Source: a virus | Lineage: Duplodnaviria > Heunggongvirae > Uroviricota > Caudoviricetes | Strand: one strand, 5' to 3' | Virus record (IMG/VR): IMGVR_UViG_2925891887_000008 | Length of the DNA stretch: 38,557 bases | Shown: positions 1 through 38,557 of the stretch, one piece after another | How positions within the stretch are numbered: position 1 is the first letter of the stretch | Layout of the letters: every line of letters starts with the position of its first letter | Notes under the pieces: model-generated | The model's input: the letters and a program-made list of their open reading frames with translations, nothing else | The model's database searches: none | Told to the model about the DNA's origin: nothing | Position numbers and translations under genes: made by a program

Positions 1-288
1 TCAATGGTTGGCGTCATTATCTTTTTCTCTTTCTGAACGTGAATATTGCGGTGGACGGTTCATCAGCTGTGGGGCAAGACGTTTTGCCACCTGAAGAATA
101 ACCACCACCGCAGCGGGAAGCATGAGCAAAACACCGAGAAAAATCATCAGAATCTGCACTTCTGGCCGAGAAAATGGCTCAGGCAGCGACAGGGAGTCGC
201 TTACCGACAGCAGCGCCACCGCCAGTAGCATCATTCCGATAAATTCCAGTATCAACACGCCTTTAGGCAATTTACCGATCGCGCGCAT
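1..288 (-). CDS. ybjC: Small inner-membrane protein YbjC (95 aa)
   Basis: Complete 95-aa hydrophobic ORF divergent from grxA; gene order ybjC-grxA-ybjM-ybjL matches the E. coli neighbourhood as I remember it. Confidence 0.7.
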   Translation of the reverse strand: MRAIGKLPKGVLILEFIGMMLLAVALLSVSDSLSLPEPFSRPEVQILMIFLGVLLMLPAAVVVILQVAKRLAPQLMNRPPQYSRSEREKDNDANH

Positions 289-447
289 ACGCTTCCCTCT
301 GCAAAGTGAGCCTTCAGTCTAAAACTTTTCACTGTATTGTGTTTAACAGTTATAGCTTTTAGCAATTAATGCAACAGGTTAAACCTACTTTCAGCGAATA
401 CATTTTAGCGTGATCATTACAGGCATAAATCTATGAGGAGAGAAATA

Positions 448-705
448 ATGCAAACCGTTATTTTTGGTCGTTCGGGTTGCCCTTACTGTGTGCGTGCAAA
501 AGATCTGGCTGAGAAATTGAGCAATGAACGCGATGATTTTCAGTATCAGTATGTAGATATTCGTGCGGAAGGGATCACTAAAGAAGATCTACAACAAAAG
601 GCAGGTAAACCCGTAGAAACCGTGCCGCAGATTTTTGTCGATCAGCAACATATCGGCGGCTATACCGATTTTGCTGCATGGGTGAAAGAAAATCTGGACG
701 CCTGA
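448..705 (+). CDS. grxA: Glutaredoxin 1
   Basis: ATG at 448 gives MQTVIFGRSGCPYCVRAK... with the CPYC active site, 85 aa; the track ORF 433..705 has an in-frame upstream extension. Confidence 0.9.
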   Translation: MQTVIFGRSGCPYCVRAKDLAEKLSNERDDFQYQYVDIRAEGITKEDLQQKAGKPVETVPQIFVDQQHIGGYTDFAAWVKENLDA

Positions 706-734
706 TCGTCTGACAAGCCCTCGCGTTGAGGGCT

Positions 735-1112
735 TTACTGATTTTTTCTGTGCTGTGGTTTAAACAAACTACTGATAAATAAGAAACACAGTGCCCCCAG
801 CGCACACCAGAACACCGCGCTTAGTAACCATGCCAGCTCTTGCCAGAATGAGCGCGTCGGTGAAAAAAACAGCCGCATAATGAGCATCGAACAGGGTGCC
901 GCCAGCATTGCGCCAAACAGAGGTTTCAGGACTTCTCTACGCTGTGAAAAGAAGCTGGCGACTGCTCCAGGAAGAATGAAAAATAGCAAGCCGATTTCAG
1001 GATGCCCGGCAGCCCGAAAAGCGCCTTTCATGTGCGTCGCCAGAAAAAGGCACACCACAATGAAGAGGACAAAACAGCAGATTGCCCCCGCCCAACGTTG
1101 TTTATGTTTCAC
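735..1112 (-). CDS. ybjM: Inner membrane protein YbjM (125 aa, multi-pass)
   Basis: 125-aa strongly hydrophobic ORF convergent with grxA; position matches ybjM. Confidence 0.7.
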   Translation of the reverse strand: MKHKQRWAGAICCFVLFIVVCLFLATHMKGAFRAAGHPEIGLLFFILPGAVASFFSQRREVLKPLFGAMLAAPCSMLIMRLFFSPTRSFWQELAWLLSAVFWCALGALCFLFISSLFKPQHRKNQ

Positions 1113-1381
1113 TCGTTCCTCCTGACACTGCGTCTATCGAACACATTTTTCGCCAGTGTGGCGTTCAGTAAGATAAAGCCGCTTCGCATTCCATGCTAAT
1201 ATAGGCCAACGCAATTCATATAGCCGTTGATACCTAATGTGATTACACTAGTAAAATATATTGTTACTTTACTATCGTTTAGGTGCGCTGAATGAATCTG
1301 CGCCCTGAATTCTGGTAAAAAACATTATCGTAAATTACCATTTCTTTCAACAGCTTACTAGTAAACAAGAAGTTAGCCTCC

Positions 1382-3067
1382 GTGAATATAAACGTCGCCG
1401 AATTGTTAAATGGGAATTACATTTTGTTATTATTTGTGGTCCTCGCGCTTGGGCTATGTCTCGGAAAGTTACGACTTGGTTCGATCCAACTGGGTAATTC
1501 CATTGGCGTTTTAGTCGTATCGCTGTTATTAGGCCAACAACATTTCAGCATTAACACCGATGCGCTTAATCTTGGCTTTATGCTGTTTATTTTCTGCGTC
1601 GGGGTCGAAGCCGGACCGAACTTTTTTTCCATTTTTTTTCGCGATGGGAAAAATTACCTAATGTTAGCACTGGTGATGGTTGGCAGTGCGCTGGTGATCG
1701 CCTTAGGGTTAGGTAAGCTGTTTGGCTGGGATATTGGCCTGACGGCCGGTATGTTAGCAGGCTCTATGACGTCGACACCGGTTCTGGTCGGTGCTGGCGA
1801 TACACTGCGTCATTCCGGCATGGAAAGCAGGCAGCTCTCACTGGCACTGGATAATCTGAGCCTCGGGTATGCCTTAACCTATTTAATCGGTCTGGTGAGT
1901 TTGATTGTTGGTGCGCGTTACTTGCCGAAATTGCAGCATCAGGACTTACAGACCAGCGCCCAGCAAATCGCCCGCGAACGTGGCCTGGACACTGATGCCA
2001 ACCGTAAGGTTTATTTACCGGTGATCCGCGCCTATCGCGTCGGCCCGGAGCTGGTGGCCTGGACCGACGGCAAAAATCTGCGTGAACTGGGTATTTATCG
2101 ACAAACCGGCTGCTACATTGAACGTATTCGACGTAACGGGATTCTGGCAAATCCAGACGGTGATGCCGTGCTACAAATGGGCGATGAAATAGCGTTGGTA
2201 GGCTATCCCGACGCCCATGCCCGACTCGATCCCAGCTTCCGTAACGGTAAAGAAGTTTTCGATCGTGACCTTCTCGACATGCGTATCGTCACTGAAGAAG
2301 TGGTCGTTAAAAACCATAACGCTGTAGGTAAACGTCTCGCACAACTGAAGTTGACCGATCACGGTTGCTTCCTTAACCGCGTCATTCGTAGCCAGATTGA
2401 GATGCCGATAGATGACAACGTCGTGCTTAACAAAGGTGACGTTTTACAAGTCAGCGGTGATGCCCGTCGCGTAAAAACCATCGCCGATCGCATCGGCTTT
2501 ATCTCGATTCACAGCCAGGTCACTGACCTGCTGGCATTTTGCGCCTTCTTTGTTATTGGGCTGATGATCGGGATGATCACCTTCCAGTTCAGCACATTCA
2601 GTTTCGGCATGGGGAACGCTGCCGGGTTGTTATTCGCCGGAATTATGCTGGGCTTTATGCGTGCTAACCACCCGACCTTCGGTTACATTCCGCAAGGTGC
2701 ATTAAGCATGGTGAAAGAGTTCGGCTTGATGGTGTTTATGGCAGGCGTTGGTCTGAGCGCCGGTAGCGGTATTAATAACGGCCTGGGCGCGATTGGCGGT
2801 CAGATGTTGATTGCCGGATTAATTGTCAGTCTTGTGCCCGTGGTTATCTGTTTCTTGTTCGGTGCTTATGTATTGCGAATGAACCGCGCACTGTTGTTCG
2901 GCGCAATGATGGGCGCACGCACCTGCGCGCCGGCAATGGAGATCATCAGTGATACAGCTCGCAGTAACATCCCTGCGCTGGGCTATGCGGGCACCTACGC
3001 AATCGCCAACGTCCTGCTGACGCTGGCAGGGACAATCATCGTCATGGTATGGCCAGGATTAGGATAA
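1382..3067 (+). CDS. ybjL: Putative AAE-family transporter YbjL (561 aa)
   Basis: 561-aa ORF with GTG start, hydrophobic N- and C-terminal transporter halves flanking a soluble central region; matches remembered YbjL. Confidence 0.85.
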
Positions 3068-3143: not shown

Positions 3144-3222
3144 GCCACTGCTTTTCTTTGATGTCCCCATTTTGTGGAGCCCATCAACCCCGCCATTTCG
3201 GTTCAAGGTTGATGGGTTTTTT
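3144..3222 (+). ncRNA. rybB: RybB small RNA (sigma-E-dependent, Hfq-binding)
   Basis: Sequence GCCACTGCTTTTCTTTGATGTCCCC...GGTTGATGGGTTTTTT matches remembered RybB; ends in a GC-rich hairpin plus U-run. Confidence 0.8.
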
Positions 3223-3280
3223 GTTGCCTAAAATTTATTCTATTTAAAATCATGAGGTTAGAAGCACTGTTTTTTAACGA

Positions 3281-3302
3281 TGGCGACAAAATGGCGGCAG
3301 CG
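3281..3302. repeat. Prophage attachment core, left copy (TGGCGACAAAATGGCGGCAGCG)
   Basis: 22-bp sequence repeated at 38518-38539 with one mismatch (A/G at position 11); directly abuts the ogr stop codon. Confidence 0.6.
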
Positions 3303-15312: not shown

Positions 15313-16083
15313 AGGGAAAGGTTGCCATCAATAGCAAGCAGTAGACAGCCTTTGTAATTGTATTAGACATAGAACAAATGCCTTTCAATGGTCTGCGTTA
15401 GAGCATTAATACGTTGCAAAAGGTCGAATGACGTTGCGCAAGTTAAGAAGTTCAATGCTCTTAAAAAAGCACTTGAAAGCAACGCCTTTAATTATTAAAA
15501 GCCAATTAATTTAGGCGGTTACTATGTTATCTTTGACACAAAAGATGTTTATTGACAATATATAAGTTCAATCTAACAAGGAGAAAAATTATGCCAAATG
15601 AAAATCTTGATATTGACTCAAGGACTACCGAGCAATTATACGAATGGTATTTGCAAGGAAATTTGATAGTCAATAGACGTTATCAAAGGAAACTTGTATG
15701 GTCTCTAGAAGAAAAGACTTCTTTAATATCTTCTATGCTGCAACAATATCCTATTCCGTTATTATTATTTGTTACCATCAATGAACAAAGAGAAATATTG
15801 GATGGAATGCAAAGATTAGAAGCAATTATGAGCTTCATCGAACAGAGATTTTCATTAGATGGACAATATTTTGATTTGGACTCTATAGCTTTAACAAAAC
15901 AACTTAAAGATAATGGAACTTTAATTCAGAAAGAACCAATCCTTTCCCGTGATTCTTCAGCAATTATTGCACGTTATCGATTTGCAATATCAGAATATAG
16001 CTCCACAAATGAAAATATTGACGAAGTATTCAGACGAATAAACTCAAACGGGAAGATTTTATCCAAACAAGAATTACGTAGTG

Positions 16084-16092
16084 CAGGAACAG
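16084..16092. repeat. IS1 target-site duplication, left copy (CAGGAACAG)
   Basis: Identical 9-mer immediately flanks both IS1 ends. Confidence 0.85.
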
Positions 16093-16147
16093 GGTGATGC
16101 TGCCAACTTACTGATTTAGTGTATGATGGTGTTTTTGAGGTGCTCCA

Positions 16148-16423
16148 GTGGCTTCTGTTTCTATCAGCTGTCCCTCCTGTTCAGCTACTGACGGGGTGGT
16201 GCGTAACGGCAAAAGCACCGCCGGACATCAGCGCTATCTCTGCTCTCACTGCCGTAAAACATGGCAACTGCAGTTCACTTACACCGCTTCTCAACCCGGT
16301 ACGCACCAGAAAATCATTGATATGGCCATGAATGGCGTTGGATGCCGGGCAACCGCCCGCATTATGGGCGTTGGCCTCAACACGATTTTCCGCCATTTAA
16401 AAAACTCAGGCCGCAGTCGGTAA
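16148..16423 (+). CDS. insA: IS1 InsA
   Basis: 91-aa [26 protein letters not shown]... typical of InsA. Confidence 0.85.
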
Positions 16424-16845
16424 CCTCGCGCATACAGCCGGGCAGTGACGTCATCGTCTGCGCGGAAATGGACGAACAGTGGGGATACGTCGGGGCTAAA
16501 TCGCGCCAGCGCTGGCTGTTTTACGCGTATGACAGGCTCCGGAAGACGGTTGTTGCGCACGTATTCGGTGAACGCACTATGGCGACACTGGGGCGTCTTA
16601 TGAGCCTGCTGTCACCCTTTGACGTGGTGATATGGATGACGGATGGCTGGCCGCTGTATGAATCCCGCCTGAAGGGAAAGCTGCACGTAATCAGCAAGCG
16701 ATATACGCAGCGAATTGAGCGGCATAACCTGAATCTGAGGCAGCACCTGGCACGGCTGGGACGGAAGTCGCTGTCGTTCTCAAAATCGGTGGAGCTGCAT
16801 GACAAAGTCATCGGGCATTATCTGAACATAAAACACTATCAATAA
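16342..16845 (+). CDS. insB: IS1 InsB frame (expressed as InsAB' by -1 frameshift)
   Basis: -1-frame ORF overlapping the insA 3' end; slippery A6C at 16399-16405. Confidence 0.8.
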
Positions 16846-16860
16846 GTTGGAGTCATTACC

Positions 16861-16869
16861 CAGGAACAG
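16861..16869. repeat. IS1 target-site duplication, right copy (CAGGAACAG)
   Basis: Identical to 16084..16092. Confidence 0.85.
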
Positions 16870-18187
16870 TTAGTAACTTCTCTGAACTGGTCAGATCGAT
16901 ATCAACATCGATCAGAGGTGATACTAGCCATTCTGACATTATGAATCTCCAGCAAATGCACAAAATTTCAATCAGTAACGATAGATTGGAGTACGGGGTA
17001 AATATCGATAACCACTTTTATATAAAACATCATATTTTAACAAGACGAAGTATTCGTGATTCTGATGACGAGGAATTGATAGCCAATATCCTTGCATATA
17101 TCAGTCTAGAAGAAAAACCCACATCTGGGTCAACTTCTCTCGACACATTCTATGGTCAAGGAAACTCCTCTCATGCTCATGGTGTCAGACAGCAATTAGA
17201 GTCTTTCATTCAAACCAATAACGCTGCCACTATTAAGCAGAATTTCATAGCTGTATATGAATTAATTACAAGCCTATATGACGGAAAAAATGATACTTTT
17301 AGAAGCCATATTTTAGGGGAGGATAATTCATCTCAAGAATGCCCTCGTTATTATCAAGCTGTGTTTTTGTCTATTTATGAACTTCTTTTCAACCAAAATA
17401 TGCAATTAATTGATAAAGAAGGTTTATTCTCGCAATTAAAAAACACTGGCAATACCATAATTATGGTTACCGATGGTGGCCGCTGGGCTGCAAGCACTCG
17501 TGAAAAAAGTGTTAATGATCTTGTTGCATTAATAAGTCGTTACTTCCAACCTGCTCCTCAAAAGTATGTGAATCATGCTTGGGTAACTGAAATTCGCAAT
17601 CTATTAACAAATTCTAGAACTGAACAACCAAGTTATGATTTCAAACAAGGGTTCTTTAATTTATCAGGTAAAAATGAATTTGATGATGAATGTTTAAAAG
17701 GAATATTACAAACTTGCGTAGCAATAAATAATATTGGAAAAAGCGCAAAAGGCTATATTTTAGTTGGTATTGCCGAAAATAAATTAACCGCAGATAGAAT
17801 TCAACATTTATATGGAGTAAATTCAATTGAGTTCAATGGGTTCTATATAAACGGAATTGATCATGAAGCAATGTTAGTCTCTGGTAGCATTGATGATTAC
17901 TTTATGTTAATAAAACAAAAAATACAAGGATACAATTTCACTGAAACTCTAAAACAGCAGATACTTAAGAATATTGAGTTTTGCTCTTACAATGGCTTAC
18001 ACATACTCAAGATAACTATTCAGAGCACAGGTCAAATTTGCGACTTTGAGAATATGTTTTATATCAGACAAGGCTCATCGACTGATCCAGTTACGGATAC
18101 ACAAAAAATCTCAGCTCTATTTAACTCTTACATGAACAGCTAATCAATCGCCATCTCCACTGGAGCTGGCTTATGGATAAAAACAAA

Positions 18188-26710: not shown

Positions 26711-27337
26711 ATGGATATCGAAAAGCTAAAAGAATTTTACGAAAAACTTTACTTTCAGGAAACGGAAAATAAAGACAAGATTTACAACAGAATTCAAATG
26801 ATATTTGGATTAATAGTAATCGACGCAACTATCGTAACATATCTGCTTAAAAACACATCCTTTGAAAATCATGCATTCTTTGCCTGCATTGTTATAGGAC
26901 TTTCATTATTATCAGTGTTTTTTATTTATAAAGCCTGCATGCTCCTAAAAAAAGCATTTTGGGGTAATGAATTCAAATACATTCCCAAACCTAAGGAAAT
27001 AGACGAATACTACAATGGCCTCATTAAATATGAAGCAGACTATAAAAAATATTGTGATAATAATGGGCTTACCTATAATGGTGAGCACTCATCAAGTAAA
27101 AAGTTCAATGAATACTTAGTAAAACAACTAGTAGAGTGTACTAGTTGGAATACTAAGAAAAATGAAATGAGAACAAGTCAAATATATCGAGCCACTAAAT
27201 TCTTTTTTTTCTCACTAATTCCATTAGTGATAGCGGTTGGCTTTTTTTTAGCGATGGATCTCGATTCAGCCTCGCCAAGGAAGACTAATGAGCCACATTT
27301 CATTATTATACCTGTAGATAATATCAGGAGATTATGA
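26711..27337 (+). CDS. AT-rich cargo membrane protein (208 aa, about three TM helices), unknown function
   Basis: RBS GGAG, ATG at 26711; hydrophobic segments at about residues 30-46, 55-73 and 164-182. Confidence 0.5.
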   Translation: MDIEKLKEFYEKLYFQETENKDKIYNRIQMIFGLIVIDATIVTYLLKNTSFENHAFFACIVIGLSLLSVFFIYKACMLLKKAFWGNEFKYIPKPKEIDEYYNGLIKYEADYKKYCDNNGLTYNGEHSSSKKFNEYLVKQLVECTSWNTKKNEMRTSQIYRATKFFFFSLIPLVIAVGFFLAMDLDSASPRKTNEPHFIIIPVDNIRRL

Positions 27338-27462
27338 TGGGAAAAGCCCCTACACCTAACAAGCCACCAGCGAAGACTCCAACTCCGCCGACACCGCCGA
27401 CACCGCCTAAATCTAGGCTAGTGAGAGACGATGATTCGAAAGCCAAAAGCAAAAGAGGTTAA
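27334..27462 (+). CDS. Proline-rich micro-protein a (42 aa; KTPTPPTPPTPPK core, SRLVRD motif)
   Basis: ATG overlaps the upstream stop (ATGA), RBS AGGAG; 9-bp in-frame repeats. Confidence 0.4.
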   Translation: MMGKAPTPNKPPAKTPTPPTPPTPPKSRLVRDDDSKAKSKRG

Positions 27463-27468
27463 AGTATC

Positions 27469-27642
27469 ATGATAAAGCCCAGCAACGAAGGAACTGGAAA
27501 ACCAAATTCTACAAGTAAATCACCTGTACCGCCTCAGCCGCCTCAGCCGCCTCAGCCGCCTCAGCCGCCTCAAACAAGGTTAGTACGAGAAAGCTTTGGA
27601 GAATACATTTCAAAGAGAGATACGAAAAATGACAAAAAATAA
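27469..27642 (+). CDS. Proline-rich micro-protein b (57 aa; (PPQ)5 core, TRLVRE motif)
   Basis: RBS AGAGG, ATG at 27469; (CAGCCGCCT)x4 tandem repeat. Confidence 0.4.
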   Translation: MIKPSNEGTGKPNSTSKSPVPPQPPQPPQPPQPPQTRLVRESFGEYISKRDTKNDKK

Positions 27643-27736
27643 CGAGCAAAAACCACCACCACCACCACCACCACCACCACTACCACCATCGTCCCGCATG
27701 CTATTTGATCACGCGGCCCCCCCTAAGAAGAAATAA
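27629..27736 (+). CDS. Proline-rich micro-protein c (35 aa; P9-L-PP core, SRMLFD motif)
   Basis: ATG at 27629 overlapping the end of b; (CCA)n tract. Confidence 0.35.
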   Translation: MTKNNEQKPPPPPPPPPLPPSSRMLFDHAAPPKKK

Positions 27737-27778
27737 CCTTAAGCCTGCGACTTAGCAGGCTTTCTTCATTAGCGCGCG

Positions 27779-27797
27779 CTCGTATCCCCGCCACGCC
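27779..27797. other. Candidate cos site (19-nt cohesive end)
   Basis: CTCGTATCCCCGCCACGCC closely resembles my recollection of the P2/186 cos core (complement GGCGTGGCGGGGA...); lies between Q and A as expected. Confidence 0.35.
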
Positions 27798-28139
27798 TGC
27801 CCGCTTTATGTAGTGGTTTTCATGCAGGTGCATGATCTACGCAAAAGCCCGCCAGTTCTGGCGGGCCTTAGCAAAAACGATCCTCAAACGATCATGCAAT
27901 CTCATGCAGCATAGACATGCACAGACGAGTAAAGCGAATCGGACTTTACGCAAGGTGAACTCCTCAGCGGGCATAATCAGTATGTCGGAAGATCTCTAAA
28001 AATGAATAATTCGGTTAACAGGTATGCTTACAAAAGCATATATTTGATTAAAAATCATGTAAGGGGGAGGATCTCAAACTGAATCGCCACGGGTTTTACA
28101 AATTTCGATAGTCTCTCTAACGTTTCGGCTGAGGTCAAA

Positions 28140-28565
28140 ATGAAAAGCTTTTACGTATTAATTTTAATTCTGGTTGCAAGCTTTGTTAGCGTCCCAGTTC
28201 AGGCGGTAACAGCTAAAAACTATGAGAAAGGAACTAAAGCTCAACAGAAATCAATATCTTACCTTTCATGTGCATTCTATGGCAGTAGCACACAATTAGA
28301 TCCTAGCTACACGGAGCAAGTACCTACAGCCGATATCAAGATATTACAGAAAGCAGCTTACCACGCTTACAACGATGCGCTCTCATACTTTGGCTATGAG
28401 GAACCAGATCACGAACAACGCATAATTGATTATGCTGAATTTGTGGCGTCGCAAGAAGCTGTGTTATGGGATAAGCCGGGAATGAATGGAAAGCAGGTAA
28501 CACTAATTGCTCGTTCTCTCTACAATGAGAGTAACTGTAACTTGTTACTGGACTCAATTAAGTAG
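28140..28565 (+). CDS. AT-rich cargo secreted protein (141 aa, Sec signal peptide), unknown function
   Basis: RBS GAGGT, ATG at 28140; N-terminal hydrophobic signal with ...VQA/V cleavage-like site. Confidence 0.5.
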   Translation: MKSFYVLILILVASFVSVPVQAVTAKNYEKGTKAQQKSISYLSCAFYGSSTQLDPSYTEQVPTADIKILQKAAYHAYNDALSYFGYEEPDHEQRIIDYAEFVASQEAVLWDKPGMNGKQVTLIARSLYNESNCNLLLDSIK

Positions 28566-28724
28566 GAAAAAGATGGTATTTTGCCCGTAGTTTCAACCTT
28601 AATCTCCGAACCTGTCGCAGAACGGGCGTTCACTCATCAAATAAACGCCACACCTAACGCCTCACTGTACTCGTTGTTCAACCTTGCTGACGCCAGAACC
28701 AAGTTCAGACGCCAGCAACTTTTC

Positions 28725-28958
28725 TTAATGCAGCCAGCTGTCGTCTTCCCACACCTTCTGCATAATCTTCATCACTTGTTTTCTTTCTTCGTCCAGTTGC
28801 AGTCCGGTCAGTTCCACACCGTTAGAGCTACCTTTGCGGATGCGAATTACCGTTTTGGGATACAGGGGGCGCAGATTGCGGTAAAGCTCGGATTCAAGGG
28901 CGTCCAGGGTAGACTGGCTAATCTTCTGCTCTTTATCGATCATTATTTCAATGCGCAT
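28725..28958 (-). CDS. dinI: DinI-family protein (DNA-damage-inducible protein I-like)
   Basis: MRIEIMIDKEQKIS...LDALESEL...KVWEDDSW parallels E. coli DinI; start taken at the internal Met. Confidence 0.75.
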   Translation of the reverse strand: MRIEIMIDKEQKISQSTLDALESELYRNLRPLYPKTVIRIRKGSSNGVELTGLQLDEERKQVMKIMQKVWEDDSWLH

Positions 28959-28968
28959 AAAGGTCACC

Positions 28969-29157
28969 TCAGCTGATGACATCCATTGAGCGGTTGTATT
29001 CGTGGGTTCTGATTTTTGCCATGAGTTCATCTGTCAGTTCAGAAACCCACTGCAAAGCCAGCCCCTTCTCTTCATCACTACACTCACTAGCCGCTACAAG
29101 CTTAAGAAAAAAATCAATGCGCTGGAGCTTCAAAGACTCCAAAAAATAGTCCTGCAT
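28969..29157 (-). CDS. Small SOS-controlled ORF (62 aa) upstream of dinI-like gene; possible Tum-like antirepressor N-module
   Basis: RBS GGAGG, ATG at 29157, LexA box about 45 bp upstream. Confidence 0.4.
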   Translation of the reverse strand: MQDYFLESLKLQRIDFFLKLVAASECSDEEKGLALQWVSELTDELMAKIRTHEYNRSMDVIS

Positions 29158-35090: not shown

Positions 35091-35282
35091 ATGCTTGGTA
35101 AGGTATTTTTTGTGGTTTTATCATGCTCTTTGTTATTAAACCCACTAACTACCTATGCTAAAAATTATCCTTGTTCTGGGAAAAAGGGAGGTGTCTCTCA
35201 CTGTACCTCCGATGGAAAGTTCGTTTGCAATGATGGAACTATTAGTAAATCAAAAAAAATCTGTACTAAAAACTCGCGATAA
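35091..35282 (+). CDS. Small secreted Cys-containing peptide (63 aa), unknown function
   Basis: Strong RBS GGGAGG, signal peptide (...TYA/KN), five Cys in the mature part; AT-rich. Confidence 0.4.
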
Positions 35283-35433: not shown

Positions 35434-36748
35434 GGGTCTTCCCTTGTTGTGGTGGCTGAAGGCATGATAATGGTGTATTTAATCGCCAGAGGTCACCGCC
35501 ATGGACGAAAAGTCCCTCTACGCTCATATTCTCAACCTGTCCGATCCGTGGCAGGTAAAGTCCCTTTCTCTCGATGAAAATGCCGGTTCTGTTACTGTCA
35601 CTATTGAGATCGCTGAAAACACCCGGCTAGCCTGTCCGACCTGCGGTAAATCCTGTTCTGTTCACGATCACCGTCATCGTAAATGGCGCCATCTTGATAC
35701 CTGCCAGTTCACCACTATTGTTGAAGCCGATGTTCCACGAATTATGTGTCCGGAGCATGGCTGCCTGACGTTGCCTGTTCCGTGGGCTGGCCCCGGAAGC
35801 CGGTATACGTTGCTATTCGAATCGTTCGTTCTCTCATGGCTGAAAATCAGCACCGTTGATGCTGTCAGGAAGCAACTTAAGCTCAGTTGGAATGCGGTTG
35901 ACGGCATTATGACCCGGGCAGTTAAGCGAGGTCTTGCCCGGATAAAAAAGCCATTATCCGCCCGTCATATGAATGTGGATGAGGTCGCCTTTAAAAAAGG
36001 ACATCGTTACATAACGGTGATCTCCGATCGCGATGGTCGGGCGCTGGCCTTAACGGATGATCGCGGCACAGAGAGTCTTGCCGGCTATCTTCGCACGCTC
36101 ACTGATGGGCAGTTGCTGGCTATCAAAACGCTCTCAATGGACATGAACGCGGGCTATATAAGAGCAGCGCGTATCCACTTACCCAGTGCGGTTGAGAAAA
36201 TCGCCTTTGACCGCTTCCATGTGGCGAAGCAACTGGGCGAGGTAGTTGATAAAACCCGTCAGAATGAACATCCGCACCTCCCTGTTGAAAGCCGACACCA
36301 GGCAAAAGGAACCCGCTTCCTGTGGCAGTACAGCGATAAGTGGATGACCGAATCCCGGCAGGAAAAGCTGATGTGGCTGCGTGCACAGATGAAGCTGACG
36401 AGCCAGTGCTGGGCGCTGAAAGAGCTGGCAAAGGATATCTGGAACAGGCCATGGAGCGAGGAAAGACGGAGTGACTGGCAGAGATGGTTGGCGCTGGCGG
36501 CTAACAGTGACGTTCCCATGATGAAAAATGCCGCGAAAACGATAGGAAAAAGGCTGTACGGGATCCTGAATGCGATGCGACACAGTGTCTCAAACGGAAA
36601 TGCGGAGGCACTTAACAGCAAGATCAGGCTGCTGAGGATAAAAGCCAGGGGATACCGAAACCGGGAGCGCTTTAAACTGGGGGTGATGTTCCACTACGGA
36701 AAGCTGAATATGGCGTTCTGAGCCTTCCCACCATGATCGGGGAAGACC
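35434..36748 (+). mobile_element. ISL3-family insertion sequence (1315 bp)
   Basis: Imperfect terminal inverted repeats GGGTCTTCCC..TGGTGG at both ends, single transposase ORF, 8-bp duplication. Confidence 0.8.
35501..36721 (+). CDS. ISL3-family transposase
   Basis: 406-aa ORF with N-terminal zinc-ribbon-like CPTCG...CPEHGC and a DDE-like core. Confidence 0.8.
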   Translation: MDEKSLYAHILNLSDPWQVKSLSLDENAGSVTVTIEIAENTRLACPTCGKSCSVHDHRHRKWRHLDTCQFTTIVEADVPRIMCPEHGCLTLPVPWAGPGSRYTLLFESFVLSWLKISTVDAVRKQLKLSWNAVDGIMTRAVKRGLARIKKPLSARHMNVDEVAFKKGHRYITVISDRDGRALALTDDRGTESLAGYLRTLTDGQLLAIKTLSMDMNAGYIRAARIHLPSAVEKIAFDRFHVAKQLGEVVDKTRQNEHPHLPVESRHQAKGTRFLWQYSDKWMTESRQEKLMWLRAQMKLTSQCWALKELAKDIWNRPWSEERRSDWQRWLALAANSDVPMMKNAAKTIGKRLYGILNAMRHSVSNGNAEALNSKIRLLRIKARGYRNRERFKLGVMFHYGKLNMAF

Positions 36749-36756
36749 CTTATACA
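36749..36756. repeat. ISL3-family element target-site duplication, right copy (TTATACAT)
   Basis: Identical to 35426..35433. Confidence 0.75.
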
Positions 36757-36792: not shown

Positions 36793-37824
36793 ATGGCAGT
36801 ACGAAAACTCACCACAGGAAAATGGCTTTGCGAATGTTACCCCGCCGGACGTAGTGGGCGTCGTGTGCGTAAACAATTCGCCACCAAAGGCGAAGCACTG
36901 GCTTTTGAGCGTCACACGATGGAAGAAACCGAAGCAAAGCCCTGGCTGGGCGAATCAGTAGATCGTCGAACCCTGAAAGACGTGGTTGAGCTATGGTTCA
37001 AACTACATGGTAAATCTCTGACTGCTGGGCAGCATGTCTATGACAAATTGCTGCTGATGGTTGACGCTCTGGGCAATCCCCTTGCAACCGATCTCACATC
37101 TAAAATGTTTGCCCATTATCGAGATAAACGACTGACAGGTGAGATCTACTTCAGCGAGAAATGGAAGAAAGGGGCCAGCCCGGTCACCATTAACCTGGAG
37201 CAAAGCTATCTAAGTAGTGTTTTTAGCGAACTATCCCGCCTGGGCGAATGGTCGTATCCAAACCCACTGGAGAACATGCGAAAATTCACCATCGCAGAAA
37301 AAGAGATGGCATGGCTTACCCATGAGCAGATTGTTGAACTGCTGGATGATTGCAAACGTCAGGACCCAATTCTGGCACTGGTAGTCAAGATATGCTTAAG
37401 CACAGGCGCACGCTGGCGAGAAGCAATAAACCTAACCCGATCACAGGTGACCAAATACCGAATTACCTTTGTAAGAACGAAGGGGAAGAAAAACAGAAGC
37501 ATCCCTATCAGTAAAGAGCTTTATGAAGAGATCATGGCGCTTGATGGGTTCAATTTCTTCACAGACTGCTATTTTCAATTTTTATCCGTGATGGAAAAAA
37601 CGTCTATCGTGCTCCCTCGCGGTCAACTTACACACGTTCTGCGTCATACGTTTGCGGCGCATTTCATGATGTCGGGTGGAAACATCCTTGCTTTGCAAAA
37701 AATCCTCGGACATCACGACATAAAAATGACTATGCGTTATGCTCATCTATCACCTGATCACTTAGAGACAGCTCTTCGTTTCAATCCACTAGCAACTTTG
37801 GATGTTACTAAATCAGATTCTTAA
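36793..37824 (+). CDS. int: Tyrosine integrase (P2/186 family)
   Basis: MAVRKLTTGKW...LSTGARWREA...HVLRHTFA...YAHL has the tyrosine-recombinase catalytic residues; RBS GGAGG. The track ORF has a spurious upstream extension. Confidence 0.9.
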   Translation: MAVRKLTTGKWLCECYPAGRSGRRVRKQFATKGEALAFERHTMEETEAKPWLGESVDRRTLKDVVELWFKLHGKSLTAGQHVYDKLLLMVDALGNPLATDLTSKMFAHYRDKRLTGEIYFSEKWKKGASPVTINLEQSYLSSVFSELSRLGEWSYPNPLENMRKFTIAEKEMAWLTHEQIVELLDDCKRQDPILALVVKICLSTGARWREAINLTRSQVTKYRITFVRTKGKKNRSIPISKELYEEIMALDGFNFFTDCYFQFLSVMEKTSIVLPRGQLTHVLRHTFAAHFMMSGGNILALQKILGHHDIKMTMRYAHLSPDHLETALRFNPLATLDVTKSDS

Positions 37825-37834
37825 AGGTTCAAGC

Positions 37835-38557
37835 ATGGTTAAGTTTTTGTTTCAATTCCCAATATTCGACTTCTCCTTAACATTTGATATTATCGAGACG
37901 TTAATCACTCATAGCGAATCATCAATCGCTAAGGGTATAGCAGAATATAAAGACAAAGGACCTGAAGAATATATAATTGAAATATCTCCGGAAGATGGTG
38001 TATATCAGTCAATTGATCATTACATGGGACTCACCAGCTCATCGCTAGATCTCGATGAAATGTTTTTAGAATACTACCCAAGTATTATCCGCAGGTCAGT
38101 ATTCTTAACTATATTCGGAATTTTTGAGCACGAAATAGAAAAATTCTGTAACAACTTTGCTAATAGACATCATTCTCCTATAAATGTTTCAGATCTCAAA
38201 GGAAGTGGATTTGAGAGGAGCCATCTATTTATCAAAAAAATGATAGGGATGAAGTCAACATCCCACTATTCGAATATCAAAAAAATAACAAAATTAAGAA
38301 ACAGTTGTGCGCATAATGATGCAAAATACTTAGAAAACGATGGGCAAAATATTAAAAGCATTATTGAACTTATAGAAAAATATCCTGATTTTTTTAAAAA
38401 AGATGGAAAACAGGTCCTATTTATGGAGGGCTCGTTAAGCATGATCTTGAACTCATTCAAAGAGTATCTTTCTGATGTTGAAAGAGCCTTAGATGAATTC
38501 GAAAAACAAAGCACTAGTGGCGACAAAGTGGCGGCAGCGGTTGGCATTACCCCGTAA
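37835..38557 (+). CDS. AT-rich cargo protein (240 aa) with Rx4H (HEPN-like) motif; candidate abortive-infection/toxin RNase
   Basis: ATG at 37835; motif KLRNSCAHND fits the RNxxxH HEPN signature; the ORF crosses the att core and ends in host-side DNA. Confidence 0.45.
   Translation: MVKFLFQFPIFDFSLTFDIIETLITHSESSIAKGIAEYKDKGPEEYIIEISPEDGVYQSIDHYMGLTSSSLDLDEMFLEYYPSIIRRSVFLTIFGIFEHEIEKFCNNFANRHHSPINVSDLKGSGFERSHLFIKKMIGMKSTSHYSNIKKITKLRNSCAHNDAKYLENDGQNIKSIIELIEKYPDFFKKDGKQVLFMEGSLSMILNSFKEYLSDVERALDEFEKQSTSGDKVAAAVGITP
38518..38539. repeat. Prophage attachment core, right copy (TGGCGACAAAGTGGCGGCAGCG)
   Basis: 21 of 22 identity with 3281..3302. Confidence 0.6.

What the first reader, a model, noticed from the sequence alone, without database searches (positions are those of the whole stretch)
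37825..38557. Cargo gene between int and the att core: 240-aa AT-rich protein with an Rx4H HEPN-like motif
In P2-type phages attP normally follows int directly; here a 723-bp AT-rich ORF is wedged between int and the right core and reads through the core. It contains KLRNSCAHND, matching the Rx4-6H (RNxxxH) signature of HEPN RNase domains found in abortive-infection proteins and toxins. The surrounding sequence is predicted helical-type (K/E/I-rich), compatible with a HEPN fold. This is a candidate defence or toxin gene; no partner antitoxin gene is evident nearby.
Basis: partly seen in the sequence, partly recalled or inferred. Interest (0 to 1): 0.7.

Follow-up and report, generated by a model that had tools for sequence, protein, structure and literature searches.

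The report
Solo HEPN cargo gene after integrase
A P2/186-like prophage of E. coli carries, squeezed between its integrase gene and its attachment site, a real and strongly conserved gene for a small stand-alone HEPN-type (predicted RNA-cutting) protein from an uncharacterised family, most likely a single-protein anti-phage "abortive infection" device, though this has not been tested.

Summary
The ORF is real: 37835-38557 (+), 723 bp, 240 aa. Its GC content is 32.8%, against 46.5% for int and 50.9% for the prophage, and dN/dS is 0.03-0.22. KLRNSCAHND is present. R155 is invariant, and N156 and H160 are 97-99% conserved across 90 homologues down to about 20% identity, as are E28, R86 and E98.

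The family has no Pfam, NCBIfam or PADLOC model. Its nearest families are RiboL-PSP-HEPN and AbiD/F. It comprises at least 2,096 clusters of about 230-aa stand-alone proteins and has no conserved partner gene.

One detail is wrong. The 22-bp repeat the ORF reads through is not the crossover core. The phage integrates into the 3' end of the sRNA gene rybB, and the right-hand core lies about 75 bp beyond the window. The repeat is a phage-internal attP-arm element, probably an Int arm site. The ORF's last 13 codons are the ancestral integrase tail.

The gene is rare: 24 of 5,426 E. coli genomes. The slot repeatedly holds diverged alleles, and the gene survives when int decays. It is a new member of a known kind, of moderate interest.

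The parts
37835..38557 (+). Cargo ORF: 240-aa stand-alone HEPN-family protein (RefSeq WP_000238243.1, annotated 'hypothetical protein')
   Evidence: ORF list and sequence; RefSeq annotation; purifying selection with dN/dS 0.03-0.22; AF2 model with pLDDT 86.6; HEPN structures as top fold hits.
38291..38320 (+). KLRNSCAHND, the Rx4H (R155-N156-x3-H160) HEPN catalytic motif at the C-terminal end of predicted helix 3 (residues 145-161)
   Evidence: R155 is 100%, N156 97% and H160 99% conserved in 90 homologues. The position at the end of helix 3 matches the HEPN definition in PMC3710099.
38078..38128 (+). Second conserved block, PSxxRRSxFLTxFGxxE, on predicted helix 2. It contains R86 (100% conserved) and E98 (99%), the conserved acidic residue in helix 2 that is typical of HEPN domains.
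   Evidence: Alignments A1 and A2; HEPN description.
38516..38557 (+). Last 13 codons plus the stop (SGDKVAAAVGITP*). This is the ancestral 3' end of int, now used as the tail of the cargo ORF.
   Evidence: Cargo-less relatives end int with ...PLATLPSGDKVAAAVGITP*. The window's int ends ...PLATLDVTKSDS*.
38518..38539 (+). Right copy of the 22-bp repeat TGGCGACAAAGTGGCGGCAGCG (two TGGCGnCA units 11 bp apart). It is an attP P-arm element, probably an Int arm-type binding site, and not the crossover core.
   Evidence: Repeat pair. The repeat is absent from the empty site and present in Klebsiella phage 4LV2017 upstream of its annotated att. Every cargo allele ends exactly at or within it.
3281..3302 (+). 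Left copy of the same 22-bp repeat (P' arm), directly abutting the ogr stop codon
3212..3238 (+). attL crossover core, which is the 3' terminator end of rybB. The attR copy lies outside the window, 74 bp beyond position 38557.
3147..3225 (+). rybB sRNA gene, the integration target of this prophage
   Evidence: Rfam RF00110, 105 bits, E 7.6e-21; K-12 annotation.
36793..37824 (+). P2-type tyrosine integrase (343 aa) with a replaced C-terminal tail
   Evidence: Pfam Int_N at 2.7e-32 and Phage_integrase at 4.1e-22.

Best explanation
The ORF encodes a stand-alone HEPN-superfamily protein of an uncharacterised family. It was acquired as foreign, AT-rich cargo in the narrow slot between the integrase gene and the attP P arm of a 186/P2-like prophage that integrates into rybB.

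The most likely mechanism is as follows. The protein is made in the lysogen, co-transcribed with int. It is held in an inactive oligomeric state. When a competing phage infects, a phage component activates it. Paired R155/N156/H160 sites, assisted by R86 and E98, then cleave RNA, either tRNA anticodon loops or mRNA. This stops translation and aborts the infection. It would thus be a single-protein sensor plus effector, as shown for HepS.

Shown: the gene is real and under purifying selection; it has a HEPN-like fold and a conserved catalytic signature; it is single-gene mobile cargo with no conserved partner; diverged alleles recur in the same slot; it is retained when int decays.

Inferred: RNase activity, the substrate, the trigger, oligomerisation, expression in the lysogen and the anti-phage role.
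For: - HMM hits. The sub-threshold hits anchored on the motif are to HEPN families (other weak hits lie elsewhere in the protein): RiboL-PSP-HEPN in 19 of 33 close homologues and 20 of 90 diverse ones (best E 4.2e-8), plus Abi_2, pEK499_p136, MAE_28990, AbiU2, Apea and Cthe2314. PADLOC gives weak hits to RTasHEPN and Cas13a. PHROG gives a weak hit to an 'abortive infection' family.
- Conservation. R86 and R155 are 100% conserved, E28, E98 and H160 99%, and N156 97%.
- Selection. dN/dS is 0.03-0.22.
- Solo cargo. The profile search found 2,096 representative clusters, nearly all 210-250 aa with full-length matches. Family members sit in P2-like prophages after int, in another P2 accessory slot between gpS and gpV, and on plasmids next to an IS, Rep or umuC gene. 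No neighbour recurs.
- Allele turnover. Alleles 100, 95, 79, 75, 60 and 48% identical all follow an int that stays 77-100% identical.
- Retention. The ORF is intact while int is frameshifted or reduced to a stub in L006-L011, L020, L031, L038 and L039.
- Defence context. The int-att region of P2-like phages has been described as a minor defence hotspot (PMC13586616). A sister phage carries PD-Lambda-1 in the adjacent cI-int slot.
- Precedent. HepS is a prophage-encoded solo HEPN abortive-infection protein (PMC13043305).
Against: - There is no experimental evidence for RNase activity or defence.
- No known defence model matches at a significant level. The best PADLOC E-value is 0.0045, and NCBIfam gives no hit.
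- No sequence-similar solved structure exists.
- No homologue was found in 50,697 deposited phage genomes.
- In this particular window an ISL3 element (35434-36749) sits 36 nt upstream of int, inside the only good promoter-like site. Expression here may therefore be altered.
- Position in an accessory slot is also compatible with addiction or phage-benefit roles.
Confidence: 0.55

Rival explanations
1. It is the toxin of a toxin-antitoxin or addiction module that stabilises the prophage or plasmid. The antitoxin would be one I could not see: a small or antisense RNA (as reported for phage-encoded AbiF in C. difficile), a very small ORF, or a host factor.
For: - HEPN toxins (HepT) are the best structural matches.
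- The family also occurs on plasmids, including IncHI2 and about 110-kb IncFIB replicons.
- The gene persists when int is broken.
- RNA-regulated AbiF exists (PMC12373285, listed; only the title and abstract were read).
Against: - There is no MNT or other conserved neighbour gene.
- Only 10 nt separate int from the ORF, and the DNA downstream is the attP arm.
- No Rfam hit was found at E<=1 in the locus.
- The 93-aa antisense ORF is a frame -1 shadow that is broken in L019 and absent from other alleles.
- No repeat array of the type III TA kind is present.
Confidence: 0.15
2. It works for the phage rather than the host. It could be an RNase used during lytic growth or induction for host shut-off or RNA processing, a weapon against P4-type satellites, or a counter-defence factor.
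For: - It is carried inside the att-delimited phage genome and so is packaged.
- P2-like phages are parasitised by P4 satellites (PMC9122126 and PMC13586616, abstracts).
Against: - It is dispensable: about 98% of E. coli prophages with this int type lack it.
- It is kept intact in decaying prophages with broken int and on plasmids, where a lytic-cycle role makes no sense.
- It lies downstream of int in the lysogenic-direction transcription unit (sequence).
Confidence: 0.12
3. It is a HEPN-fold protein that is not a nuclease, for example a binding or regulatory protein.
For: Many HEPN domains are non-catalytic (PMC3710099). No activity data exist.
Against: The complete catalytic signature, R-N-x3-H plus the helix-2 acid, is 97-100% conserved over homologues only 20% identical. 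This pattern is expected for catalytic residues rather than for a scaffold.
Confidence: 0.08
4. It is not a gene, only a chance ORF in AT-rich spacer DNA.
For: It is AT-rich, annotated 'hypothetical', and matches no curated family.
Against: dN/dS is 0.03-0.22 with saturated dS. There are thousands of full-length homologues, and the fold is predicted with confidence.
Confidence: 0.01

Closest known systems
HepS (Gifsy-1 prophage, Salmonella; PDB 9oik; PMC13043305)
   Different: No sequence relationship was detected. Profile searches of all PDB sequences at E<=10 did not return HepS, and tblastn against phage records, including LT2 Gifsy-1, found nothing. The motif is at R155-H160 here and at R100-H105 in HepS. 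This protein has an N-terminal helix plus a beta-hairpin extension. The phage type (P2-like) and the slot (int-attP) also differ.
RiboL-PSP-HEPN (Pfam PF18735) and the AbiD/AbiF (Abi_2, PF07751) HEPN clade
   Same: These give the best HMM similarity. PF18735 is hit by 19 of 33 close and 20 of 90 diverse family members, with a best E of 4.2e-8. Abi_2 is hit by 11 of 33. All hits align over the Rx4H helix. [quoted passage not shown]
   Different: The window protein scores 17.1 bits against a gathering cut-off of 28.4. About 70 of 90 relatives give no Pfam hit at E<0.01, and 10 sampled distant relatives gave none to PF18735. There is no L-PSP fusion and no ParB neighbour.
HepT/MNT-HEPN type II (VII) toxins (PDB 5yep, 7ae2, 7bxo, 1jog)
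   Different: They are about 130 aa and always paired with an MNT nucleotidyltransferase antitoxin. This protein is 240 aa, carries extra elements and has no MNT neighbour.
ApeA and other single-protein HEPN defences (HEPN_Apea, AbiU2, AbiJ)
   Same: All follow the single-polypeptide HEPN defence concept. Some family members give weak hits to the Apea and AbiU2 models.
   Different: The hits are far below threshold. Those proteins are larger and have separate N-terminal sensor domains (from my own knowledge and PMC3710099).
int-att defence hotspot of P2-like phages (PMC13586616)
   Same: [quoted passage not shown]
   Different: That study counted systems recognised by DefenseFinder or PADLOC, and neither recognises this gene. 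The boundary rule found here, that cargo ends exactly at the TGGCGnCA repeats, and the takeover of the int tail were not found in the passages of that paper that I searched.

Membership tests
HEPN superfamily | [quoted passage not shown] | tested here: met
HEPN superfamily | [quoted passage not shown] | tested here: met
   R155-N-S-C-A-H160 lies at the end of helix 145-161. R is 100% and H is 99% conserved.
HEPN superfamily | Conserved acidic residue in helix 2 close to the motif | tested here: met
   E98 is 99% conserved and lies in helix 73-111.
HEPN superfamily | Metal-independent RNase activity from a composite dimeric active site | not testable with these tools
   This needs biochemistry or a multimer structure.
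Pfam PF18735 HEPN_RiboL-PSP | Score at or above the gathering cut-off of 28.4 bits | tested here: not met
   The window protein scores 17.1 bits, E 0.0055. One distant relative reaches E 4.2e-8, which I estimate at about 34 bits by scaling. The family therefore borders PF18735 but is not covered by it.
Pfam PF18735 HEPN_RiboL-PSP | [quoted passage not shown] | tested here: not met
   Members are single-domain proteins of 210-250 aa. No ParB neighbour was seen.
Abi_2 (AbiD/AbiF, PF07751) | Score at or above the gathering cut-off of 25.6 bits | tested here: not met
   The score is 14.7 bits, E 0.038, and the match covers only residues 133-162.
HepS family | Detectable sequence homology to STM14_3211 / PDB 9oik | tested here: not met
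HepS-like mechanism (works like, not membership) | Solo gene with no partner, prophage-borne, non-toxic until triggered by a phage protein, tRNA anticodon nuclease | tested here: inconclusive
   The solo and prophage-borne features are met. Trigger, toxicity and substrate cannot be tested here.
MNT-HEPN (HepT) toxin-antitoxin | Adjacent minimal nucleotidyltransferase antitoxin gene | tested here: not met
   Upstream is int, with a 10-nt gap. Downstream is the attP arm and then host rcdA. No MNT gene was seen in any of the contexts examined.
Known defence systems (PADLOC-DB v2) | Significant match to a system model | tested here: not met
   The best hits are HEC-01A at E 0.0045, RTasHEPN at 0.007 and Cas13a at 0.013.

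The most novel reading that the evidence does not exclude
This is the founding example of a large, unmodelled family of self-contained HEPN 'sensor plus RNase' immunity proteins, with at least 2,000 clusters at 50% identity. It is unrelated in sequence to HepS but would work the same way. Its variable surfaces (the N-terminus, the beta-hairpin at 42-72, residues 162-199 and helix 4) would set which phage is sensed. Its alleles are swapped as cassettes into a slot whose right edge is fixed to the nucleotide by the integrase arm-binding repeats of attP. The cargo even borrows the integrase's old C-terminal codons and stop codon.
Probability: 0.35. Interest if true: 0.6.

Novelty: new member of a known kind. 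Interest (0 to 1): 0.42.

Why it matters
If the protein is an abortive-infection RNase, it adds a widespread single-gene defence family that current detectors (PADLOC, NCBIfam, Pfam) do not see. The family spans prophages, plasmids and many Enterobacterales, and extends beyond them.

It would also provide a second, independent lineage for testing how a lone HEPN protein both senses a phage and kills. The naturally diverged alleles (100 to 48% identity) sit in one isogenic slot, which makes them a ready-made panel for mapping specificity.

The locus further shows how cargo can be added at the int-attP junction without damaging attP. That rule is useful for delimiting prophages and for mining this minor hotspot.

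For annotation, the prophage boundary is the rybB 3' end, not the 22-bp repeat.

Tried and rejected
- I first accepted the 22-bp repeat as the att core and concluded that the last five codons were host DNA and that the C-terminus would change on excision. I rejected this after three results. The reconstructed 'attB' was found contiguous in only 2 genomes. K-12 showed rybB and no such repeat at the empty site. Klebsiella phage 4LV2017 carries the same arm.
- Profile searches of PDB sequences with A1 and A2 gave only chance hits.
- NCBIfam gave no hit. PADLOC gave only weak hits.
- tblastn against 50,697 phage records gave no match.
- The afdb50 fold library was unavailable.
- I fetched LT2 Gifsy-1 to obtain a HepS sequence for direct comparison, but no hepS-like gene is annotated there.
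- The search for related loci with the diverse alignment A2 failed because it has no conserved peptide stretch.
- The second homologous-protein run, with A2, added almost nothing and returned no Pfam labels.
- Scanning 10 distant relatives to find those that pass the PF18735 threshold gave none.
- The upstream 239-aa ORF in L024 was tested as a possible paralogue or partner and is unrelated.
- The antisense 93-aa ORF was tested as a possible partner and is a shadow ORF.
- No Rfam family and no transposon-like terminal repeats flank the cargo.
- Literature searches for the accession WP_000238243, for 'RiboL-PSP', and for rybB as a P2 integration site found nothing useful.

Full report
**Where the window lies.** The window is E. 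coli chromosome. Host genes ybjC, grxA, ybjM and ybjL occupy 1-3067. The sRNA gene rybB follows at 3147-3225 (Rfam RF00110, 105 bits). Next comes a 186/P2-like prophage in the order ogr, tail genes, head genes, A, cII/fil, cox-like, CI repressor, int. The window stops at the stop codon of the ORF in question. In the complete genome NZ_CP024889 the next gene is host rcdA.

**The observation.** The ORF at 37835-38557 is 723 bp and 240 aa. It begins 10 nt after the int stop, behind an AAGG ribosome-binding site, and contains KLRNSCAHND at residues 153-162. RefSeq annotates exactly this ORF as a hypothetical protein, WP_000238243.1. Its GC content is 32.8%, against 46.5% for int and 50.9% for the prophage, so it is of foreign origin. 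Pairwise dN/dS against homologues 75-95% identical is 0.03-0.22, with synonymous sites near saturation. It is therefore a translated gene under purifying selection.

**It is a cargo insertion.** The same int type runs uninterrupted into the att arm in 1,059 of 5,426 complete E. coli genomes. The cargo is present in only 24 of them, always single-copy and chromosomal. Related phages, Escherichia vB_EcoM-813R9 and Klebsiella 4LV2017, have int but no cargo.

**The 'core' was misidentified.** Three results contradict this.
- The attB I reconstructed from it is essentially never found contiguous in E. coli.
- The empty K-12 site has no such sequence. It has rybB followed directly by the end of rcdA.
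- A second direct repeat, ATGGGTTTTTTGTTnnCTAAAAyTTAT, is the rybB terminator end. One copy is at 3212-3238 and the other lies 74 bp beyond the ORF stop (L001 7882-7908).

Klebsiella phage 4LV2017 carries the same int tail, the 22-bp element, a 75-nt spacer and then ATGGGTTTTTTGTT, where its att is annotated.

The phage therefore integrates into the 3' end of rybB. The 22-bp element is phage DNA present once in each attP arm, and the left copy abuts the ogr stop. Each copy consists of two TGGCGnCA units 11 bp apart. Between the right copy and the core lies a tandem 18-nt repeat, AAyCTAACTTATTGTTTT. By analogy with lambda and P2 attP architecture I infer that the 22-bp elements are Int arm-type sites. 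This has not been tested. One consequence follows: the ORF's C-terminus is entirely phage-encoded and does not change on excision.

**How the cargo sits in the slot.** Cargo-less integrases end ...RFNPLATLPSGDKVAAAVGITP*, reading through the 22-bp element. In the window, int ends ...RFNPLATLDVTKSDS*, and the cargo ORF ends ...QSTSGDKVAAAVGITP*. The insertion thus split off the last 13 codons and the stop of int, and the cargo now uses them.

Every homologue found after a related int keeps the right boundary fixed to the nucleotide. The 240-aa alleles read through the element. The 229-233-aa alleles stop with a TAG immediately before TGGCG, or 12 nt before it in Enterobacter ludwigii. The arm element is therefore an untouchable boundary and the slot is a genuine cassette site. 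No terminal repeats mark the cargo.

**What the protein is.**
- *Curated libraries.* They do not recognise it. There is no NCBIfam hit. All Pfam hits are below threshold. PADLOC hits are at E>=0.0045. It matches a PHROG of unknown function at 2.7e-9.
- *Weak hits.* Those that cover the motif are all to HEPN families: RiboL-PSP-HEPN, Abi_2, DUF3644, RTasHEPN, Cas13a and an 'abortive infection' PHROG. A few unrelated weak hits (EzrA, FWWh, DUF7040) lie elsewhere. Across family members RiboL-PSP-HEPN is hit most often, in 19 of 33 and 20 of 90, with a best E of 4.2e-8. It is followed by Abi_2, pEK499_p136, MAE_28990, AbiU2, Apea and Cthe2314.
- *Family size.* A word-indexed search found 40 clusters, all in Enterobacterales and all annotated hypothetical. 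An exhaustive profile search found 2,096 representative clusters at E<=1e-3 and 548 at E<=1e-10, almost all 210-250 aa with full-length matches.
- *Conservation.* In 90 diverse members, down to about 20% identity, R86 and R155 are invariant. E28, E98 and H160 are 99% conserved, P82 98%, N156 97% and C105 96%.
- *Structure.* The AF2 model (pLDDT 86.6, pTM 0.82) has H1 at 14-41, a beta-hairpin at 44-63, H2 at 73-111 (carrying R86 and E98), an insert helix at 125-137, H3 at 145-161 (ending in RNSCAH), small elements at 174-196 and H4 at 200-235. This matches the published definition of HEPN: a four-helix bundle with an insert between H2 and H3, Rx4-6H at the end of H3, and a conserved acid in H2 (PMC3710099).

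Together with the motif, its position and the HMM hits, I put superfamily membership at about 0.85-0.9. No solved structure is sequence-related.

**Context and evolution.**
- *Prophages.* Homologues 100, 95, 79, 75, 60 and 48% identical all lie directly downstream of an integrase that remains 77-100% identical. The cargo either diverges far faster than int or is replaced by allelic exchange. Such turnover is expected of conflict genes.
- *Decay of int.* In several lineages int is frameshifted or reduced to a stub while the HEPN ORF is intact. These are Phytobacter and relatives (L006-8), E. ludwigii (L009-11), L020, L031, Salmonella (L038) and Rouxiella (L039). This suggests selection for the gene that is independent of phage mobility.
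- *Other sites.* Family members also occur in a different P2 accessory slot between gpS and gpV (L024). They occur on Pantoea, Vibrio, IncHI2, Klebsiella IncFIB and Leptospira plasmids.
- *No partner.* No neighbour recurs, there is no MNT gene, and no Rfam RNA is detected. The antisense 93-aa ORF is a shadow ORF.
- *Hotspot.* The int-att interval of P2-like phages was recently listed as a minor defence hotspot (PMC13586616). A sister phage carries PD-Lambda-1 in the neighbouring cI-int slot.

**Mechanism.**
- *Best-supported reading (confidence about 0.55).* The protein is a solo HEPN abortive-infection RNase. It would be expressed in the lysogen with int, stay inactive until a phage component triggers it, and then cleave tRNA or mRNA through paired R155/H160 sites. 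HepS is the experimentally characterised analogue (PMC13043305). It is not a sequence relative.
- *Addiction-toxin rival (0.15).* The protein would be the toxin of a module with an unseen RNA or peptide antitoxin.
- *Phage-benefit rival (0.12).* The protein would be an RNase used by the phage, or a factor against satellites.
- *Non-catalytic rival (0.08).* The protein would be a HEPN-fold protein without nuclease activity.
- *What is inferred.* Activity, substrate, trigger and expression are all inferences.
- *Strain-specific caveat.* In this strain an ISL3 element (35434-36749, with an 8-bp target duplication TTATACAT) sits 36 nt upstream of int, inside the only good promoter-like site. This may change expression of int and the cargo.

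**Verdict.**
- *Observation.* It is largely right; only the 'core' was misidentified.
- *Interpretation.* The HEPN, candidate defence or toxin reading is supported.
- *Novelty.* The gene is a new member of a known kind: an uncharacterised but widespread solo-HEPN family in a recently recognised minor P2 hotspot. A specialist would not be very surprised.
- *Interest.* It is moderate. The family size, its invisibility to current detectors, the natural allele series and the nucleotide-exact slot boundary make it a reasonable experimental target.

Noticed in passing
window 3147-3238 (rybB and the attL core); attR core at L001 7882-7908, about 75-100 bp beyond the window end: The prophage is integrated into the 3' terminator end of the sRNA gene rybB and supplies a substitute hairpin at attR. 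As a result, the window cuts the prophage about 100 bp short of its true right end.
   Followed up: yes
window 3281-3302 and 38518-38539; L001 7827-7862: attP-arm architecture: a 22-bp element (TGGCGnCA twice, 11 bp apart) occurs once on each arm. The P arm also carries a tandem 18-nt repeat, AAyCTAACTTATTGTTTT. These are probably binding sites for Int arm recognition and for IHF or Cox. This has not been tested.
   Followed up: partly
window 35434-36749: An ISL3-family insertion sequence (transposase ORF 35501-36721, terminal inverted repeats GGGTCTTCCC/GGGAAGACCC, 8-bp target duplication TTATACAT) is inserted 36 nt upstream of int, inside a TTGACA-17-AAAAAT promoter-like site. It is absent from the otherwise identical prophage in NZ_CP024889. 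It may uncouple int and the HEPN gene from the cI operon.
   Followed up: partly
window 15552-18143: This is an AT-rich island (33-40% GC) inside the tail-gene region, at the Z/fun-type hotspot. A DUF262/GmrSD_N fragment similar to NsnA and PD-T4-2_A (181 aa) is apparently truncated by an IS1 (transposase at 16342-16845). A 400-aa protein with a Schlafen AlbA_2 domain follows. This is probably a disrupted defence locus.
   Followed up: partly
window 26711-28976: This is a second AT-rich stretch (42-44% GC), at the old/tin-type hotspot between the replication gene A and the portal and terminase genes. It has three ORFs of 208, 141 and 131 aa with no Pfam hits. The 208-aa ORF gives a weak PADLOC '2TM effector' hit at E 2e-4.
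   Followed up: partly
window 35091-35282: A 63-aa ORF just after the CI repressor gene has a signal-peptide-like N-terminus and several cysteines. It is also annotated in NZ_CP024889 as a hypothetical protein (WP_001321204.1). Its function is unknown.
   Followed up: no
L002 1286-2962 (Escherichia phage vB_EcoM-813R9); L007 226-2863: Sister phages with the same int carry other cargo in the cI-int slot. One carries a 558-aa PD-Lambda-1/SNIPE-T5orf172 protein (PADLOC E 3e-120), sometimes with a 314-aa partner. E. ludwigii carries an unannotated 526-aa protein there. Both sides of int are therefore cargo slots in this lineage.
   Followed up: partly
L006-L011, L020, L031, L038, L039: The integrase is frameshifted or reduced to a C-terminal stub in several genera, while the adjacent HEPN ORF stays intact. 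This suggests domestication of the cargo after the prophage decays.
   Followed up: partly
L024 3074-4702: In another P2-like viral contig a 50%-identical HEPN homologue sits between gpS and gpV (the P2 orf30 position). An unrelated 239-aa ORF of unknown function lies beside it.
   Followed up: partly
L004 3146-6012 (IncHI2 plasmid CP035634): A 32%-identical family member is flanked on the same strand by a TPR protein upstream and a 437-aa hypothetical protein downstream. This may be a three-gene operon specific to that subfamily.
   Followed up: no
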